DNA of 64,000 bases from the human T2T-CHM13v2.0 reference genome, Homo sapiens: positions 1,152,001 to 1,216,000 of the forward strand of contig CP086569.2 in NCBI GenBank assembly GCA_009914755.4, read 5' to 3'. A program made the position numbers and the translations under genes. Every line of letters starts with the position of its first letter. The first letter of the stretch is position 1. Below are positions 38,855 to 49,102 of this stretch, one piece after another. The notes beneath the pieces are model-generated. The model saw only the letters and a list, made by a program, of their open reading frames with translations. It did not search any database and was not told where the DNA came from.

Positions 38855-40083
38855 AAAATATCAGGCCGGGCGCGGTGGCTCACGCCTGTCACCCCAGCAC
38901 TTTGGGAGGCCGAGGCGGGCGGATCACCTGAGGTCAGGAGTTCGAGAACAGCCTGGCCAACATGGCGAAACCCCGTCTCTACTAAAAAGAATAATAATAA
39001 TAAAAATTAGTTGGGCATGGTGGCCTGCAATCCCAGCTACATGGGAGGCTGAGGCAGGAGAATCGCTTGAACCTGGGAGGCAGAGGTTGAGGTGAGCTGA
39101 GATCGTGCCATTGCACTCCAGCCTGGGTGACAAGAGTGAAACTCCATCTCAAAAATAATAAAATTAAATTAAATTAAATTAAATTTTTTAAAAAAAGATA
39201 TCAGACCGGGCACAGTGGCTCACACCTGTCATCCCAGCACTTTGGGAGGCCGAGGCGGGCGGATCACCTGAGGTCAGGAGTTCGAGACCAGCCTGGCCAA
39301 CTGGGTGAAACCCCATCTCTACTAAAAATACAAAAATTAGCCGGGTGTGTTGGCGCGCACCTGTCATCCCAGCTACTCGGGAAGCTGAGGCAGGAGAATC
39401 GCTTGAACTCGGGAGGCGGAGGTTGAGGTGAGCCGAGATCATGCCACTACACTCCAGCCTGGGCAACAAGAGTGAAACTCCATCTCAAAAAAAATAAAGT
39501 AAAATAAAATAATAATTTTAAAAAATAAAGATATCAGGCCGGTTGCAGTGGCTCACGCCTGTAATCCCAGCACTTCGTGAGGCCGAGGCGGGTGGATCCC
39601 CTGAGGTCAGGAGTTCGAGACCAGCCTGGCCAACAGGGTGACATCCCATCTCTACTAAAAATACAATAGTTAGCCGGGCGTGGTGGCGGGTGCCTGTAAT
39701 CCCAGCTACTCAGGAGGCTGAGGCAGGAGAATCGCTTGAACCAGGAAGGTGGAGGTTGAGGTGAGCCTACATAGAGCCGCTGCACTCCAGCCTGGGCAAC
39801 AAGAGCAAAACTCCATCTCAAAAAAACATAAATAAAAATAGATAAATAAATAAATAACAAAAATATCAGGCGAGGCACTGTGGCTCACGCCTGAAATCCC
39901 AGCACTTTGTGAGGCCGAGGTGGGCGGATCCCCAGAGATCAGGAGTTTGAGACCAGCCAGACCAACATGGTGAAACCCCGTCTCTACTAAAAATACAAAA
40001 ATTAGCCGGGCGTGGTGGTGTGCACCTGTCATCCCAGCTACTCAGGAGGCCGAGGCAGGAGAATCGTTTGAACCCGGGAGGTG
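38855..40083 (+). repeat. Tandem array of four Alu-plus-spacer units (~333-bp period), each Alu preceded by ...AAA(G)ATATCAG. The last unit is truncated at 40083
   Basis: aaaaaATATCAGGCCGGGCGCGG (38855), aaaGATATCAGACCGGGCACAG (39195), aaaGATATCAGGCCGGTTGCAG (39527), aaaaATATCAGGCGAGGCACTG (39860). Alus at 38866-39180, 39205-39530, 39538-39865 and 39869-40083. Confidence 0.85.
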
Positions 40084-40128
40084 GTTTTGCAGGATAGATA
40101 GATTCAAGAGATCTATGGTACAATGCAT

Positions 40129-40433
40129 GGCTGGGCGCAGTGGCTCATGCCTGTAATCCCACCACTTAGGGAGGCAGAGGTAGGCGGATCACAAGTTCAG
40201 GAGTTCGAGACCAGCCTGACCAACATGGTGAAACCCCGTCTCTACTAAAAATACAAAAATTAGCCGGGCGTGGTGGTGTGCACCTGTCATCCCAGCTACT
40301 CAGGAGGCTGAGGCGGGAGAATCGCTTGAACCCGGGAGGCAGAGCTTGCAGTGAGCCAAGATCACGCCACTGCCCTCCAGCCTGGGTGACAGAGTGAGGC
40401 TCCATCTCAAAAAATAGATAAATAAATAAATAT
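40129..40433 (+). mobile_element. Alu (full). Its right arm is near-identical to the truncated Alu just upstream
   Basis: GGCTGGGCGCAGTGGCTCATGCCTGTAATCCCACCACTTAGGGAGGCAGAGG... AAAATTAGCCGGGCGTGGTGGTGTGCACCTGTCATCCCAGCTACTCAGGAGGC is shared with 39995-40080. Confidence 0.9.
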
Positions 40434-40974
40434 GAGCACAGTTGGAGCCCCTCATCCCCACGACCCCTTTTAACAGTAACCCAGGGGATGGTATCTCACG
40501 TTCAGACAGAAGTGGGTCGGTCTTGCAACTGCCGGAGACCGTGGCCCCTGCCCTGGGGGGCTCTGAGCAGTAGCAGAACCAGCCACATTGCAGAAGCCGG
40601 GAACCAGGAGTCAGCCTCACGGTGGGTGGAGGGTGGGGGGCTGGAGGATCCCTCATTTCCCCGGGACAGACCTGCACGTCCACCCTCTTAGAAGCCAGGG
40701 CAAGAGCAAAGAGTGGGCACGTGGTCTGAGAGACCCACTGGTCACGGAAGGTCTCAGCAACACCATCCCCAGGAGGGTCCTTGCAGGCACCTGTGGGGCT
40801 AGTTCCTGGCTCCAGGCAGCCTTTACCGTCCAACCCAGGCAGGAGTGGTTTCCGTGACCCCAGTATTGCCCGTGGAATTCCCCTGAGACGAGGGGCTTTC
40901 CTGGCGAACTTTCCCAGCGAAAACACATCCGGTCACAGGCTTTGCAGCCCCCTCACTCCTGGGATCCCTGGGGA

Positions 40975-41590
40975 AGGGGGGCTGAGTTTCTGAGATTTCT
41001 TTTTTTTTTTTTTTTTTTTTTTGAGATGGAGTCTCACTGTGTCACCCAGAGTGGGGCTGAGTCTTTGAGATTTCTATTTTTTTTTTTTTTTTTTTTTGAG
41101 ATGGAGTCTCACTGTGTCACCCAGAGTGGGGCTGAGTCTCTGAGATTTCTATTTTTTTTTTTTTTTCTTTTTGAGATGGAGTCTCGCTGTGTCACCCAGA
41201 GTGGGGCTGTCTTTGACATTTGTTTGTTTTTTGTTTTTTTTTTGAGATGGAGTCTCAGTCTGTCACCCAGAGTGGGGCTGAGTCTCTGAGATTTCTATTT
41301 TTTTATTTTTATTTTTTGAGATGGAGTGTCGCTCTGTCACCCAGAGTGGGGCTGAGTCTCTGAGATTTCTATTTTTTTTTTTTGAGATGGAGTCTCGCTC
41401 TGTCACCCAGAGTAGGGCTGAGTCTCTGAGATTTCTAATTTTTTTTTTGAGATGGAGTCTTGCTCTGTCACCCAGAGTGGGGCTGAGTCTCTGAGATTTC
41501 TTTTTTTTTTGAGATGGAGTCTCACTCTGTCACCCGGAGTGGGGCTGAGTCTCTGAGATTTCTTTTTCTTTTTTTTTTTTTTTTGAAACA
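40975..41590 (-). repeat. ~62-bp minisatellite (~10 copies) seeded from an Alu 3' end: poly-T + the first ~31 nt of a reverse Alu + a 26-bp flank (AGTGGGGCTGAGTCTCTGAGATTTCT). The last copy reads through into a full Alu
   Basis: TTTTTTTGAGATGGAGTCTCACTGTGTCACCCAGAGTGGGGCTGAGTCTCTGAGATTTCT recurs at ~40977, 41045, 41113, 41178, 41245, 41300, 41362, 41425, 41487 and 41545. Confidence 0.9.
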
Positions 41591-47152: not shown

Positions 47153-47328
47153 TTCTGGGTGTGGTGACGGGCACCTGTCATCCCAGCTACTCGGGAGGCT
47201 GAGGCAGGAGAATCGCTTGAACCTGGGAGGCTCAGGTTGCGGAGAGCTGAGATCGCGCCACTGCACTCCAGCCTGGGTGATAGAGCAAGACTCCATCTCA
47301 GAAAAAAAAAAAAAAAAAAAAAAAAAAG
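47153..47328 (+). mobile_element. Alu right-arm monomer with a long poly-A
   Basis: CTGGGTGTGGTGACGGGCACCTGTCATCCCAGCTACTCGGGAGGCTGAGGCAGGAGAATCGCTTGAACCTGGGAGGCTCAGGTTGCGGAGAGCTGAGATCGCGCCACTGCACTCCAGCCTGGGTGATAGAGCAAGACTCCATCTCAG(A)n. Confidence 0.85.
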
Positions 47329-47329
47329 A

Positions 47330-47647
47330 TATCTTAGTGGTCAGGTGCGGTGGCTCACGCCTGTCATCCCACCACTTTGGGAGGCCAACGAGGGTGGATC
47401 ACCTGAGGTCAGGAGTTCGAGACCATCTGGCCAACATGGTGAAACCCCGTCTCTAGTAAAAATTTAAAAATTAGCCGGGCGTGGTGGCAGGTGCCCGTAA
47501 TCCCAGCTACTTGGGAGGCCGAGGCAGGAGAATCGCTTGAACCTGGGGCAGAGGTTGCAGGCAGCCGAGATCGCACCATTGCACTCCAGCCTGGATGACA
47601 GAGCAAGCAAAGCGAGACTCCGTCTCAAAGAAAAAAAAAAAAAAAAC
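47330..47647 (+). mobile_element. Alu (+) preceded by GATATCTTAGTGG. This is an inverted copy of the Alu+spacer unit that is tandemly repeated in reverse at 47.9-49.1 kb
   Basis: aaaaaaaaGATATCTTAGTGGTCAGGTGCGGTGGCTCACGCC is the reverse complement of GTGAGCCACCGCACCTGACCACTAAGATATCtttttttt. It shares the rare GGCCAGATGGTCTC variant with the copy at 48494-48790. The ORF track gives near-identical 65-aa peptides on opposite strands (47409-47606 - and 48523-48720 +). Confidence 0.85.
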
Positions 47648-47885
47648 AGGAGCCGGGCTGCAAGGTGGAGGCTCTGGGGAAGGGCTGAGGTTGGGGTGGA
47701 ATTTGGGAAGGGTGCCGAGAACCAGAGAAGAGTTGATACATTCAGAGGGAAGGGAAGGGCTGTCTGGGAGTGCGCGTGCTGAGTAAACAGAAATAACAGA
47801 TTTCAGCGTTGGAAAGAGAAGCCCGGGACAGGTTGGTGAGTGCCCCATTCAGGGCTGGACTTTACTAAGGGTTTTTGTTTGTTTG

Positions 47886-49102
47886 TTTTCTGTTGAGACA
47901 GAGTTTGCTCTTGTCACCAGGCTGGAGTGCAGTGGTGTGATCTCGGCTCACTGTAACCTCCGCCTGCCGGGTTTAAGTGATTCTCCTGCCTCAGCCTTGG
48001 GAGAAGCTGGGATTACAGGCACCTGCCACCACGCCTGGCTAATTTTTAAATTTTTACTAGAGACGGGGTTTCACCATGTTGTCCAGGCTGATCTTGAACT
48101 CCTGCCCTCAGGTGATCTACCCGCCTCAGCCTCCCAAAGTGCTGGGATGACAGGTGCGAGCCACCGCGCCTGACCACTAAGATTTTTTTTTTTTTTTTTT
48201 GAGACGGAGTCTCGTTCTATTTCCCAGGCTGGAGTGCAGTGGCGCCATCCTGGCTCACTGTAACCTCCACCTCCCAGGTTCAAATGATTCTCCTGCCTCA
48301 GCCTCCGGAGAAGCTGGGATTATAGGCACCCACCACCACGCCTGGCTAACTTTTTTCTTTTTACTAGAGACGGGGTTTCACCATGTTGGTCAGAATGGTC
48401 TCGAACTCCTGACCTCAGGGTGATCCACCCTCCTCGGCCTCCCAAAGTGCTGGGATGACAGGTGTGAACCACCGCACCTGACCACTAAGATATCTTTTTT
48501 TTTTTTTTTTTGAGACGGAGTCTTGCTCTATCACCCAGGCTGGAGGGCACTGGCGCCATCCTGGCTCACTGTAACCTCTCTCCCAGGTTCAAACTATTCT
48601 CCTGCCTCAGCCTCCAGAGAAGCTGGGATTACAGGCACCTGCCACCACGCCTGGCTAATTTTTAAATTTTTACTAGAGACGGGCTTCCACCATGTTGGCC
48701 AGATGGTCTCAAACTCCTGACCTCAGGTGATCCGCCCTCATCGGCCTCCCAAAGTGCTGGGATGACAGGTGTGAGCCACCACCCCTGACCACTAAGATAT
48801 CTTTTTTTTTTTTTTGAGACCGAGTCTTGCTCTGTCGCCCAGGCTGGAGTGCAGTGGCGCGATCTCGGTTCACTGTAACCTCCTCCGCCTCCCAGGTTCA
48901 AGCGATTCTCCTGTCTCAGCCTCCCGAGTAGCTGGGATTACAGGTGCTCACCACCACGCTGGGCTAATTTTTGTATTTTTAATAGAGACGGGGTTTCACC
49001 ATGTTGGCCAGGCTGGTCTCAATCTCTTGACCTCAAGTGATCTGCCCGCCTCGGCCTCCCAAAGTGCTGGGATGACAGGCGTGAGCCACCGCACCCGGCC
49101 AC
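47886..49102 (-). repeat. Tandem array of four reverse Alu-plus-spacer units (~307-bp period), each ending ...GACC ACTAAGATATC followed by poly-T
   Basis: Alus at 47893-48176, 48186-48482, 48494-48790 and 48802-49100. Junctions are cctgaccACTAAGATttttttt (48176), cctgaccACTAAGATATCttttttt (48482, 48790) and ccggccACTAACATATCtttaata (49100). The copies share ...GAGAAGCTGGGATT and CTGGCTAATTTTTAAATTTTTACTAGAGACGG. Confidence 0.9.

What the first reader, a model, noticed from the sequence alone, without database searches (positions are those of the whole stretch)
38855..49102. A family of tandemly amplified Alu-plus-spacer units in the intergenic region, present as two direct arrays in opposite orientations plus one inverted singleton
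Array 1 (38855-40083, + strand) has four Alus, each preceded by AAA(G)ATATCAG, at a ~333-bp period. Array 2 (47886-49102, - strand) has four Alus, each followed on its own strand by GATATCTTAGTGG, at a ~307-bp period. A single + strand copy at 47330-47647 carries the same GATATCTTAGTGG spacer. It also carries the rare internal variant GGCCAGATGGTCTC found in array-2 unit 3 (48494-48790). The ORF track independently shows near-identical 65-aa peptides on opposite strands for these two copies. Three consequences follow. (i) Alu units have expanded here by unequal exchange that included their flank. (ii) The common GATATC-containing spacer suggests the two arrays descend from one progenitor that was then inverted or duplicated. 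(iii) The inverted copy ~850 bp from its partner forms a large imperfect inverted repeat. This is the kind of architecture associated with hairpin formation, replication-fork stalling and recurrent rearrangement.
Basis: seen in the sequence. Interest (0 to 1): 0.5.

Follow-up and report, generated by a model that had tools for sequence, protein, structure and literature searches.

The report
Old tandem Alu arrays with insertion-site spacers
Two short runs of four Alu repeats are real, ancient local duplications in which each unit carries the short target-site duplication (TSD) made when the first Alu inserted; this is a known and common way for repeats to multiply, the two runs are not demonstrably related, and the nearby inverted copy is no more hairpin-prone than dozens of other Alu pairs in the same window.

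Summary
Array 1 has four + strand Alus starting at 38864, 39204, 39537 and 39869. Array 2 has four - strand Alus starting at 49100, 48790, 48483 and 48175. An inverted + strand copy (S) starts at 47339.

The spacers are copies of each founder Alu's target-site duplication (TSD). The same motif lies in the unique DNA 5' of each array, and a remnant follows array 2. Private shared substitutions show local duplication: array 2 plus S, P=0.0025; array 1, P=0.033. Mosaic site patterns and a 91-nt A4/X5 identity tract show later unequal exchange and gene conversion. Units differ by 5.6-10% at non-CpG sites, so the arrays are old.

A common progenitor for the two arrays is not supported. Cross-array sharing is at background (P=0.44), all nine units get 0% bootstrap, and the flanks are not homologous. 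B1 looks younger and may be a second insertion at the same target site. The "singleton" is about 1.5 array units.

The inverted repeat exists but ranks 9th, 13th and 16th of 44 inverted Alu pairs in the window. At least four other Alu-plus-flank duplications occur in the same 64 kb. This is an ordinary example of a known kind.

The parts
38853..38863 (+). Array 1: 5' copy of the target-site duplication (TSD) in unique DNA (AAAAAATATCA)
   Evidence: Read directly. It matches the internal junctions AAAGATATCA (twice) and AAAAATATCA.
38864..39203 (+). Unit A1: Alu body 38864-39150, then A/T-rich tail and spacer GATATCA
   Evidence: BLAST to the Alu consensus covers 1-282. Both monomers hit Rfam Metazoa_SRP. 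Carries the private 223A/224G.
39204..39536 (+). Unit A2: Alu body 39204-39486, then tail and spacer GATATCA
   Evidence: Shares 223A/224G with A1 and A3, and 100G with A3. Its tail shares the unusual TTTTAAAAAA segment with the A1 tail.
39537..39868 (+). Unit A3: Alu body 39537-39819, then tail and spacer AATATCA
   Evidence: Shares 223A/224G with A1 and A2, 100G with A2, and 42T/63C with A4, so its markers are mosaic.
39869..40084 (+). Unit A4: Alu truncated at consensus position 216; its central part was converted by, or to, the neighbouring Alu X5
   Evidence: BLAST covers 6-216. Shares 42T/63C with A3. A 91-nt exact run at 39960-40050 equals 40218-40308; 400 random Alu pairs give mean 24.7, max 49.
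40129..40408 (+). X5: separate neighbouring Alu with a different 5' flank; gene-conversion partner of A4
   Evidence: Its 5' flank lacks the ATATCA motif.
47157..47338 (+). S0: Alu right-arm fragment (47157-47299), A-rich tail including A26 (47302-47327), then spacer GATATCTTAGT (47328-47338)
   Evidence: The tail and spacer tie it to array 2. Its body is no closer to the B units (22-33 differences of 155) than to unrelated Alus (20-24).
47339..47647 (+). S: inverted full-length copy of an array-2 unit, with its A-tail
   Evidence: Shares 3T, 5A, 119G, 127T/128T, 88del/89T and 53A with B2-B4. The S+B2+B3+B4 clade has 67-70% bootstrap among 81 window Alus. The S0-S block aligns best to B1 right arm + spacer + B2 (84.8% over 486 nt; other registers 83.1% and 81.7%).
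47648..47863 (.). Unique spacer between the inverted block and array 2
   Evidence: Not masked by Alu BLAST. No match to the array-1 region.
47864..47869 (-). Array 2: remnant of the 3' TSD (CTTAGT) directly after the B4 tail
   Evidence: The minus-strand read is ...CAAACAAAAACCCTTAGTAAAG. These are the last 6 nt of the GATATCTTAGT spacer.
47870..48175 (-). Unit B4: Alu body 47895-48175 with a distinct (AAAC)n-type tail; 3'-most unit
   Evidence: Carries 3T, 119G, 127T/128T, 172T and 222A. 8 of 24 CpGs intact, 8.2% non-CpG divergence.
48176..48483 (-). Unit B3: Alu body 48201-48483, poly-A tail, degenerate spacer ATCTTAGT
   Evidence: Shares 199T, 233G, 237G and 264T with B2. B2+B3 has 77-82% bootstrap.
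48484..48790 (-). Unit B2: Alu body 48512-48790, poly-A tail, spacer GATATCTTAGT
   Evidence: Shares the rare GGCCAGATGGTCTC with S only.
48791..49100 (-). Unit B1: Alu body 48816-49100, poly-A tail, spacer GATATCTTAGT; less decayed than the other units
   Evidence: 14 of 24 CpGs intact and 3.8% non-CpG divergence, against 6-8 of 24 and 6.9-8.2% for B2-B4 (Fisher P=0.027 and 0.066). No excess of shared rare variants with the rest of the array. Its membership rests on the flanking motif.
49101..49114 (-). Array 2: 5' copy of the TSD in unique DNA (AAAGATATGTTAGT)
   Evidence: It matches the internal AAAGATATCTTAGT at 13 of 14 positions. It is preceded by TTATT, which fits an L1 endonuclease TTT/AA-type nick site (my own knowledge of the consensus).

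Best explanation
These are two independent, old, neutral tandem arrays. Each grew from a single Alu insertion site.

Step 1 (inferred from anatomy): an AluS element inserted by L1-mediated target-primed reverse transcription and created a short target-site duplication (TSD). The TSD is about AAA(G/A)ATATCA for array 1 and AAAGATAT(C/G)TTAGT for array 2.

Step 2 (inferred): a first dimer formed. One route is slippage or unequal exchange between the two TSD copies (the Haber-Louis route). The other is a second Alu inserting into the regenerated target site (the double-insertion route).

Step 3 (supported by sequence): misaligned Alu-Alu homologous exchange then added units of Alu + tail + TSD. 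This gave periods of about 333 and 307 nt with the TSD at every junction and at the array borders. Continued unequal exchange and gene conversion left mosaic units. One conversion reached the neighbouring Alu X5.

Step 4 (shown as structure, mechanism inferred): a segment of array 2 about 490 nt long (right arm + tail + TSD + full unit) was copied in inverted orientation about 220-270 nt beyond the array's 3' end.

A deletion later removed the 3' end of array 1. Unit divergence of 5.6-10% at non-CpG sites puts these events tens of millions of years ago, assuming a primate neutral rate near 1e-9 per site per year. The arrays have no evident function. Today they are ordinary substrates for occasional unequal exchange.
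For: Junction anatomy:
- The same motif precedes every unit and also sits in the unique DNA 5' of each array. A CTTAGT remnant follows array 2.
- The array-2 motif occurs five times, only at these junctions, with 0 of 100 shuffles reaching five.

Private shared substitutions:
- 223A (window background 0.00) with the adjacent 224G is in A1-A3. The exact string GAGGTTGAGGTGAGC occurs only in those three units.
- 100G is in A2 and A3. 42T/63C is in A3 and A4.
- 3T and 119G are in S and B2-B4. 172T is in B2-B4. 127T/128T, 89T and further B2/B3 markers are listed.
- Group permutation against random window Alus: array 2 plus S has 8 against 1.72 (P=0.0025); array 1 has 4 against 1.06 (P=0.033).
- NJ bootstrap: S+B2+B3+B4 67-70%; B2+B3 77-82%.

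Exchange and conversion:
- 26 of 66 non-CpG site pairs are incompatible in array 2 plus S, and 16 of 28 in array 1.
- A4 and X5 share a 91-nt exact run; the maximum in 400 random Alu pairs is 49.

Generality in this window: the 43672-44943 array has the same layout, with its TSD-like motif at the 5' flank, at each junction and after the last unit. Three further Alu-plus-flank duplications also occur.

Unit identity: each monomer hits Rfam Metazoa_SRP below the gathering score.

Precedent: the Haber-Louis model, and 300 TE-derived human tandem repeats flanked by 5-20 bp direct repeats (PMC3389668). A TSD inside a tandem junction followed by unequal exchange (PMC5932611).
Against: - On Alu-body sites alone, array 1 is weakly supported. 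A1+A2+A3 has 1-17% bootstrap and A2+A3 21-35%. Its case rests mainly on the junction motif, on 223A/224G (adjacent positions, possibly one event) and on tail similarity.
- B1 shares no excess of rare variants with B2-B4 or S and is less decayed. At least one unit may therefore be an independent insertion rather than a duplicate.
- The S0 body is not specifically B-like.
- The 3' TSD of array 2 is only a 6-nt remnant, and the 3' border of array 1 is deleted.
- No outgroup species or second haplotype could be obtained. The order and dates of events are inferred, not observed.
Confidence: 0.8

Rival explanations
1. Double-insertion seeding of array 2. B4 descends from the founder Alu. B1 is a younger, independent Alu that inserted into the regenerated 5' target site and recreated the same TSD. 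Unequal crossover between the two then produced the internal hybrid units B2 and B3 (and the source of S). This is a variant of the main explanation that differs in how the first dimer arose.
For: B1 keeps 14 of 24 CpGs and has 3.8% non-CpG divergence, against 6-8 of 24 and 6.9-8.2% for B2-B4 (Fisher P=0.027 and 0.066). B1 lacks the clade markers 3T, 119G and 172T and shows no excess sharing with the rest. B1 has a near-perfect 14-nt TSD, 13 of 14. Derived states shared with B4 lie at positions 3-198, and those shared with B1 (207T, 270A) lie 3' of that. B1-B3 share pure poly-A tails, unlike B4. The double-insertion model predicts a TSD inside the junction (PMC5932611).
Against: The B1-shared states are CpG transitions and prone to recurrence. 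222A is shared by B1-B4 but not S, which fits neither simple model. B4's odd 3' end is about equally far from the Sx-like and Sz-like forms (my reading). B1 could equally be an array member refreshed by gene conversion from a younger Alu. The second nick would have had to fall exactly at the 5' end of the resident Alu.
Confidence: 0.35
2. One reading: arrays 1 and 2 descend from one progenitor Alu-plus-GATATC unit that was duplicated or inverted to a second site about 8 kb away.
For: Both spacers contain (A)nGATATC next to the A-tail, so the internal junctions share an 8-mer such as AAGATATC. 27C is present in A1, A2 and all array-2 units.
Against: All nine units get 0% bootstrap. The smallest clade holding them has 59-70 of 82 leaves (81 window Alus plus the consensus). 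Cross-array rare-variant sharing is 4 against 3.53 expected, P=0.44. With Alus masked, nothing but poly-T matches between 37500-41500 and 46000-50200. Array-specific markers do not cross: 223A/224G are absent from array 2, and 3T, 119G and 172T are absent from array 1. Array 1 has the ACAAGAG..AAACTCC 3' end with 272A, while B1-B3 and S have the ACAGAGC.AGACTCC form. The spacers differ: 7 nt against 11 nt. 27C is in 27 of 80 window Alus and is unlinked to other variants. Unrelated flanks share a 6-mer in 3.2% of pairs and a 7-mer in 1.45%, and there are 15 possible pairs among six local families.
Confidence: 0.06
3. No duplication at all: the units are independent retrotransposition events that landed head-to-tail by chance or by preference for A-rich tails in an extremely Alu-dense region, and TRF merely reports adjacent Alus.
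For: The window is 42.6% Alu, with about 100 Alus. TRF identities of 84-86% equal those of unrelated adjacent Alus at 11533, 25402 and 60512. Raw distances between units overlap the low tail of the window background.
Against: Independent insertions do not share 7-14 nt 5' flanks. Among 85 intact 5' ends, such sharing is confined to a handful of local groups. The array-2 motif exceeds every shuffle. Private substitutions and the permutation tests argue against it. Insertion into an A-tail would not place the same non-A spacer between tail and next Alu every time.
Confidence: 0.04
4. One reading: the S/array-2 inverted repeat is a special fragile structure that forms hairpins, stalls forks and drives recurrent rearrangement at this locus.
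For: An inverted repeat is present. S/B4 is 86.5% identical with a 268-nt spacer, S/B2 is 88.8% with an 885-nt spacer, and the 490-nt S0-S block pairs with any array register at 82-85%. Divergent, widely spaced Alu inverted repeats can fold back when exposed in long single-stranded DNA (PMC10164571). The inverted block itself is a past rearrangement.
Against: There are 44 comparable pairs in the window, seven of them closer together. The S pairs rank 9, 13 and 16 of 44 in duplex energy. In wild-type yeast, a spacer change from 12 to 100 bp lowers recombination about 300-fold, and identity of 86% lowers gross rearrangements about 58-fold (PMC10164571). The arms have diverged by 7-10% at non-CpG sites, so the structure has persisted for a very long time.
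Confidence: 0.07

Closest known systems
TE-derived tandem repeats flanked by short direct repeats (Haber-Louis initiation model; human survey by Ahmed & Liang 2012, PMC3389668)
   Same: The repeat unit is a transposable element. The array is bounded by a 5-20 bp direct repeat. Slippage or unequal crossover between the direct repeats is the proposed initiation, followed by slow local expansion. Arrays 1 and 2 and the 43672-44943 array all show the direct repeat at the borders and junctions.
   Different: That survey required at least 95% identity between units. The units here are 84-86% alike overall, so they are much older and would not have been counted. Here the direct repeat can be identified specifically as the Alu's own TSD.
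Double insertion followed by unequal exchange (McGurk & Barbash 2018, PMC5932611; the Drosophila R1 and hobo arrays)
   Same: The TSD is retained inside every tandem junction, and a dimer expands into an array by unequal exchange. B1 looks like a later, independent arrival at the same target site.
   Different: The element is a primate SINE mobilised in trans by L1, not a site-specific or DNA transposon. There are only four units. A second insertion is suggested for one unit of one array and is not demonstrated.
Inverted Alu repeats as fragile motifs (Lobachev et al. 2000, as summarised in Ait Saada et al. 2023, PMC10164571)
   Same: Two Alus in inverted orientation on one chromosome with 86-89% identity.
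   Different: The spacers of 268-885 nt and 11-14% divergence place the pairs far outside the unstable range measured in double-stranded DNA. They are typical of this window.
Alu-derived minisatellites (Jurka & Gentles 2006, cited in PMC9659126)
   Same: Tandem repetition seeded at an Alu end plus adjoining flank. A true example lies in this window at 40978-41611 (75-nt unit).
   Different: The focal arrays repeat whole Alus plus tail plus TSD (units of 307-333 nt), not a short sub-fragment.

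Membership tests
Alu (dimeric 7SL-derived primate SINE) | About 282-nt dimer of two 7SL-related monomers joined by an A-rich linker, ending in an A-rich tail | tested here: met
Left and right monomers separately hit Rfam RF00017 Metazoa_SRP below the gathering score (E from 1e-14 to 1e-3). The tails were read directly.
Alu (dimeric 7SL-derived primate SINE) | Flanking target-site duplication of about 7-20 nt starting at an A-rich L1 endonuclease site | tested here: met
   Array 2: AAAGATATGTTAGT (49101-49114) against AAAGATATCTTAGT at the junctions, with a CTTAGT remnant after B4. Array 1: AAAAAATATCA against AAAGATATCA or AAAAATATCA, with the 3' border deleted.
Alu subfamily assignment (S, not Y or J; Sz-like against Sx-like) | Curated diagnostic positions (Dfam/Repbase) | not testable with these tools
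   No Alu subfamily library is available. From memory, both arrays look AluS. Array 1 has an ACAAGAG..AAACTCC 3' end, and B1-B3 and S have ACAGAGC.AGACTCC. This is a lead only.
Tandem array produced by local duplication (not serial insertion) | Units share post-insertion (private) substitutions beyond what unrelated copies share | tested here: met
   Array 2 plus S: 8 against 1.72, P=0.0025. Array 1: 4 against 1.06, P=0.033. The exact GAGGTTGAGGTGAGC occurs only in A1-A3. The S+B2-B4 clade has 67-70% bootstrap. This is not met for B1.
Tandem array produced by local duplication (not serial insertion) | Identical non-element sequence at every junction, in register | tested here: met
Haber-Louis type (direct-repeat-bounded) tandem repeat | The same short direct repeat at both outer borders of the array | tested here: inconclusive
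   The 5' border is met for both arrays. The 3' border of array 2 is a 6-nt remnant. The 3' border of array 1 was lost to truncation at Alu position 216.
Double-insertion-seeded array (McGurk & Barbash) | Two founder elements of independent origin (different age or sequence) sharing one target site, with the TSD in the junction | tested here: inconclusive
   The TSD is in the junction. B1 is younger-looking and lacks the clade markers. The hybrid pattern in B2 and B3 rests on CpG sites only. An outgroup is needed.
   0% bootstrap. Between-array sharing P=0.44. No flank homology. The spacers share only (A)nGATATC.
Fragile inverted Alu repeat (Lobachev criteria) | Spacer of a few tens of nt or less and high identity (well above about 86%) | tested here: not met
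   Spacers are 268, 574 and 885 nt with identities of 86.5, 83.6 and 88.8%. Ranks are 13, 16 and 9 of 44 in duplex energy. Thresholds come from PMC10164571.

The most novel reading that the evidence does not exclude
This 64-kb window may be a local hotspot for TSD-primed tandem amplification of SINEs. It holds at least six independent Alu-plus-flank duplications, three of them with the TSD at every junction, alongside many VNTRs. On this reading, array 2 preserves a primate example of the route from double insertion through unequal exchange to an incipient satellite, so far documented mainly in Drosophila. The region would then be a natural series of early stages of satellite birth from a SINE.
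Probability: 0.25. Interest if true: 0.35.

Novelty: new member of a known kind. Interest (0 to 1): 0.13.

Why it matters
It matters little on its own. The arrays show clearly how an Alu's own target-site duplication ends up as the spacer of a small tandem array. They also show that such arrays can persist for tens of millions of years while exchanging sequence with one another and with neighbouring Alus.

There are two practical lessons:
- In Alu-dense DNA, TRF-type tandem calls and shared short motifs need a window-matched background before they are read as common ancestry.
- A nearby inverted Alu copy should not be flagged as a rearrangement hazard without comparing it with the many equivalent pairs around it.

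If the density of such duplications in this window proved exceptional genome-wide, the region could help in studying how SINE-derived satellites begin.

Tried and rejected
1. Raw pairwise distances were uninformative, because Alus have a star-like phylogeny. A4's values there were also inflated by extension past its truncation point.

2. Pairwise counts of variants carried by five or fewer Alus were too strict. They dropped the clade-wide markers, and a few badly extended fragments (53469, 62943, 33871) dominated the top of the list. I replaced this with the group permutation.

3. The search for a second haplotype or orthologue failed. Unique-flank patterns found nothing in metagenome contigs or genome contigs. 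The junction 19-mer gave five hits, all chance matches in microbial DNA with no alignment to the window. The annotated collections hold only phages, plasmids and E. coli, so I did not query them.

4. Treating S0 as a copy of a specific B right arm was rejected, because its body is no closer to the B units than to unrelated Alus.

5. Reading B4's 3' end as evidence of a different subfamily founder was rejected. It is about equally far from either form.

6. Using 27C as an A/B link was rejected, because it is the commonest non-CpG variant in the window and is unlinked to anything else.

7. The ORF scan for nearby genes found only VNTR or low-complexity open frames. I spent no protein-database searches.

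8. The Rfam mir-1268 and mir-3135 hits are below their gathering scores and lie inside Alus, so they are Alu-derived model matches rather than genes.

Full report
**Context.** The window is primate DNA of extreme Alu density. Tandem Repeats Finder lists many VNTRs. It also reports every pair of adjacent same-strand Alus as a "tandem repeat" at 82-86% matches. A TRF hit is therefore not evidence of duplication here, and I judged everything against the other roughly 70-80 Alus of the same window.

**Labels.**
- A1-A4 are the array-1 units.
- X5 is the separate Alu just downstream of A4.
- B1-B4 are the array-2 units in minus-strand 5'-to-3' order.
- S is the + strand copy, and S0 is the right-arm fragment upstream of it.

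- Array 1 has + strand Alus starting at 38864, 39204, 39537 and 39869 (period 332-340). Each is preceded by (A)nATATCA or (A)nGATATCA.
- Array 2 has - strand Alus starting at 49100, 48790, 48483 and 48175 (period 307-310). Each is preceded on its own strand by GATATGTTAGT, GATATCTTAGT, GATATCTTAGT and AAAATCTTAGT respectively.
- A + strand Alu at 47339 is preceded by GATATCTTAGT.
- GATATCTTAGTGG with up to 2 mismatches occurs five times in 64 kb, only at these junctions, and none of 100 shuffles reaches five.
- GGCCAGATGGTCTC is confined to S and B2.
- The two 65-aa ORFs exist, are 78% identical and are antisense-Alu frames.
- Each monomer of each unit hits Rfam Metazoa_SRP below the gathering score, as expected for 7SL-derived SINEs.

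Three details need correcting. A4 is cut at Alu position 216 (40084). The B3/B4 junction is degenerate. The "singleton" is preceded by an Alu right-arm fragment (S0, 47157-47299), an A26 run and the spacer, so it represents about 1.5 array units.

**What the spacer is.** The unique DNA immediately 5' of B1 reads AAAGATATGTTAGT (49101-49114, minus strand). Every internal junction reads (A)nGATATCTTAGT, and directly after B4's tail comes CTTAGT (47864-47869). The unique DNA 5' of A1 reads AAAAAATATCA, and the internal junctions read AAAGATATCA or AAAAATATCA. The spacer is therefore the target-site duplication (TSD) of the founding insertion, and each array sits inside one TSD pair. The 3' border of array 1 has been lost together with the end of A4. 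A third array at 43672-44943 has the same layout, with AATGRCCCC at the 5' flank, at both junctions and after the last unit.

**Duplication rather than serial insertion.** Relative to the consensus, A1-A3 share 223A, which has a window background of 0.00, together with the adjacent 224G. The exact string GAGGTTGAGGTGAGC occurs only in those three units. A2 and A3 share 100G. A3 and A4 share 42T and 63C. S and B2-B4 share 3T and 119G, B2-B4 share 172T, and several further markers link subsets.

I counted non-CpG variants shared within a group but carried by at most 5% of other Alus, and compared with 2,000 random groups of window Alus:

| Group tested | Observed | Expected | P |
|---|---|---|---|
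| Array 2 plus S | 8 | 1.72 | 0.0025 |
| Array 1 | 4 | 1.06 | 0.033 |
| Between the two arrays | 4 | 3.53 | 0.44 |

In a bootstrapped NJ tree of the 81 window Alus plus the consensus, S+B2+B3+B4 form a clade (67-70%) and B2+B3 pair (77-82%). Array 1 is weakly grouped on body sites, with A2+A3 at 21-35% and A1+A2+A3 at no more than 17%. Its case therefore leans on the junction motif and on the tails. The A1 and A2 tails share an unusual TTTTAAAAAA segment.

**Exchange after duplication.** Derived-state partitions conflict widely. In array 2 plus S, 26 of 66 non-CpG site pairs are incompatible, and in array 1 the figure is 16 of 28. Repeated unequal crossover or gene conversion among units would produce this. 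A4 and the unrelated neighbour X5 share a 91-nt exact run (39960-40050 and 40218-40308). It includes five departures from the consensus at positions 136-180. Among 400 random Alu pairs the mean longest run is 24.7 and the maximum 49. This is a clear conversion tract.

**Age.** Units differ by 5.6-10% at non-CpG sites in array 2 plus S, and by 7.3-9.4% among A1-A3. They retain 6-14 of 24 CpGs. With a neutral rate near 1e-9 per site per year (general knowledge, so this is inference), the duplications are tens of millions of years old. These are fossils and not recent amplifications.

**B1 and how the first dimer arose.** B1 keeps 14 of 24 CpGs and is 3.8% diverged, against 6-8 of 24 and 6.9-8.2% for B2-B4 (Fisher P=0.027 and 0.066). 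It lacks the clade markers and shows no excess sharing with the rest of the array.

One reading is the double-insertion route of McGurk and Barbash. A TSD regenerates the target site, a second element lands there, the junction contains the TSD, and unequal exchange expands the dimer (PMC5932611). On that reading B4 would be the founder, and B2 and B3 would be hybrids. Derived states shared with B4 lie at positions 3-198, and those shared with B1 (207T, 270A) lie 3' of that. B1-B3 also share pure poly-A tails, unlike B4. However, the B1-shared states are CpG transitions, so this is suggestive only.

The alternative is initiation by slippage or unequal exchange between the two TSD copies. This is the Haber-Louis model, and Ahmed and Liang counted 300 TE-derived human tandem repeats with such flanking repeats (PMC3389668). 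In that case B1 would have been refreshed later by conversion.

**The inverted block.** The segment 47161-47643 aligns to the reverse complement of array 2 in every register. The best match is B1 right arm + spacer + B2, at 84.8% over 486 nt. The other registers give 83.1% and 81.7%. S itself belongs to the B2-B4 clade. The S0 body is not specifically B-like. The block ends inside an Alu on one side and in an A-tail on the other. This fits an inverted duplication of about 1.5 units whose direction and mechanism cannot be recovered without an outgroup.

**Is the inverted repeat special?** No. The window holds 44 inverted full-length Alu pairs with spacers of 1 kb or less, and seven are closer together than S/B4 (268 nt, 86.5%). 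In predicted DNA duplex energy, S/B2, S/B4 and S/B3 rank 9th, 13th and 16th of 44. In wild-type yeast, widening the spacer from 12 to 100 bp lowers Alu inverted-repeat recombination about 300-fold, and 86% identity lowers gross rearrangements about 58-fold. Such pairs become potent only within long single-stranded DNA (PMC10164571).

**Are the two arrays one family?** The evidence says no.
- All nine units together get 0% bootstrap.
- Cross-array sharing of rare variants is at background.
- With Alus masked, nothing but poly-T matches between the two regions.
- Array-specific markers do not cross.
- The 3' ends differ in form.
- The shared variant 27C is carried by 27 of 80 window Alus and is unlinked to any other variant.
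- The spacer resemblance, (A)nGATATC, is mildly unusual. Unrelated flanks share a 6-mer in 3.2% of pairs and a 7-mer in 1.45%. It was noticed post hoc among 15 possible pairs of local families.

**Setting and limits.** At least four other Alu groups in the window repeat their flank: 43672/44165/44669, 25672/25950, 16852/17174 with 31 nt of flank, and 34871/35255 with 39 nt. Local duplication of Alu-containing units is thus a regional habit. No convincing coding ORF lies near the arrays. Attempts to find the locus in other public sequence failed, so all ordering and dating is inferred from one haplotype.

**Verdict.** This is a real, correctly described structure and an ordinary example of TE-derived tandem repeats bounded by the element's own target-site duplication. 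The common-origin claim is unsupported, and the instability claim applies no more here than to dozens of neighbouring Alu pairs.

Noticed in passing
window-wide; e.g. 38890, 39230, 47365, and the units at 47895-49100: Alu position 27 A>C (CCTGTAATCCCAGC to CCTGTCATCCCAGC) is the commonest non-CpG variant among the window's Alus. It is in 27 of 80 copies (21 of 70 after collapsing local duplicates), in both orientations, and is unlinked to any other variant. The homologous right-arm position 162 A>C is in 9 of 81. It is not a subfamily marker that I know of. It could be a recurrent site-specific change, a regional effect, or an issue with my remembered consensus.
   Followed up: partly
40978-41611: A minisatellite of nine 75-nt units at 87% matches. 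The unit is a poly-T run, the first ~30 nt of the 3' end of a minus-strand Alu, and about 25 nt of flank. It abuts the full Alu at 41585-41863(-). This is an Alu-end-plus-flank minisatellite of the kind described by Jurka and Gentles.
   Followed up: no
43672-44943: A third TSD-bounded array: three units of about 500 nt (Alu + right-arm fragment + (TAAA)n tail). AATGRCCCC appears in the unique 5' flank, at both internal junctions and after the last unit.
   Followed up: partly
25386-26233; 16570-17174(-); 34871-35370: Further local Alu duplications of a different type. One is a 278-nt-period trio with a tail-less junction GAGAGGAGCTGT. The other two are Alus duplicated together with 31 nt and 39 nt of 5' flank, so they are plain tandem duplications rather than TSD-sized spacers.
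   Followed up: partly
39960-40050 and 40218-40308: A 91-nt exact identity tract between truncated array unit A4 and the separate neighbouring Alu X5. It includes five shared departures from the consensus. Random Alu pairs reach at most 49 nt. This is the footprint of Alu-Alu gene conversion.
   Followed up: yes
7347-10394 (with related VNTRs across 2154-10643): A very large 57-nt VNTR with 53.5 copies at 96% identity. It is open in two + strand frames (1063 and 1044 codons), with a 19-codon proline-, threonine- and serine-containing unit. It is flanked by related 43-, 34-, 91- and 339-nt repeat families. The open frames are probably just stop-free units, but a coding mucin-like repeat was not excluded.
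   Followed up: no
50232-51322: A tandem array (122-nt period, 9.0 copies at 95%; also scored as 485 nt, 2.2 copies at 94%) that I recognise, from memory only, as a fragment of an old L1 ORF2 region. It would be another TE-derived tandem repeat in the same window.
   Followed up: no
38700-49300: Rfam mir-1268, mir-3135 and mir-2300 models hit many Alus well below their gathering scores. These are Alu-derived model matches, not miRNA genes.
   Followed up: yes
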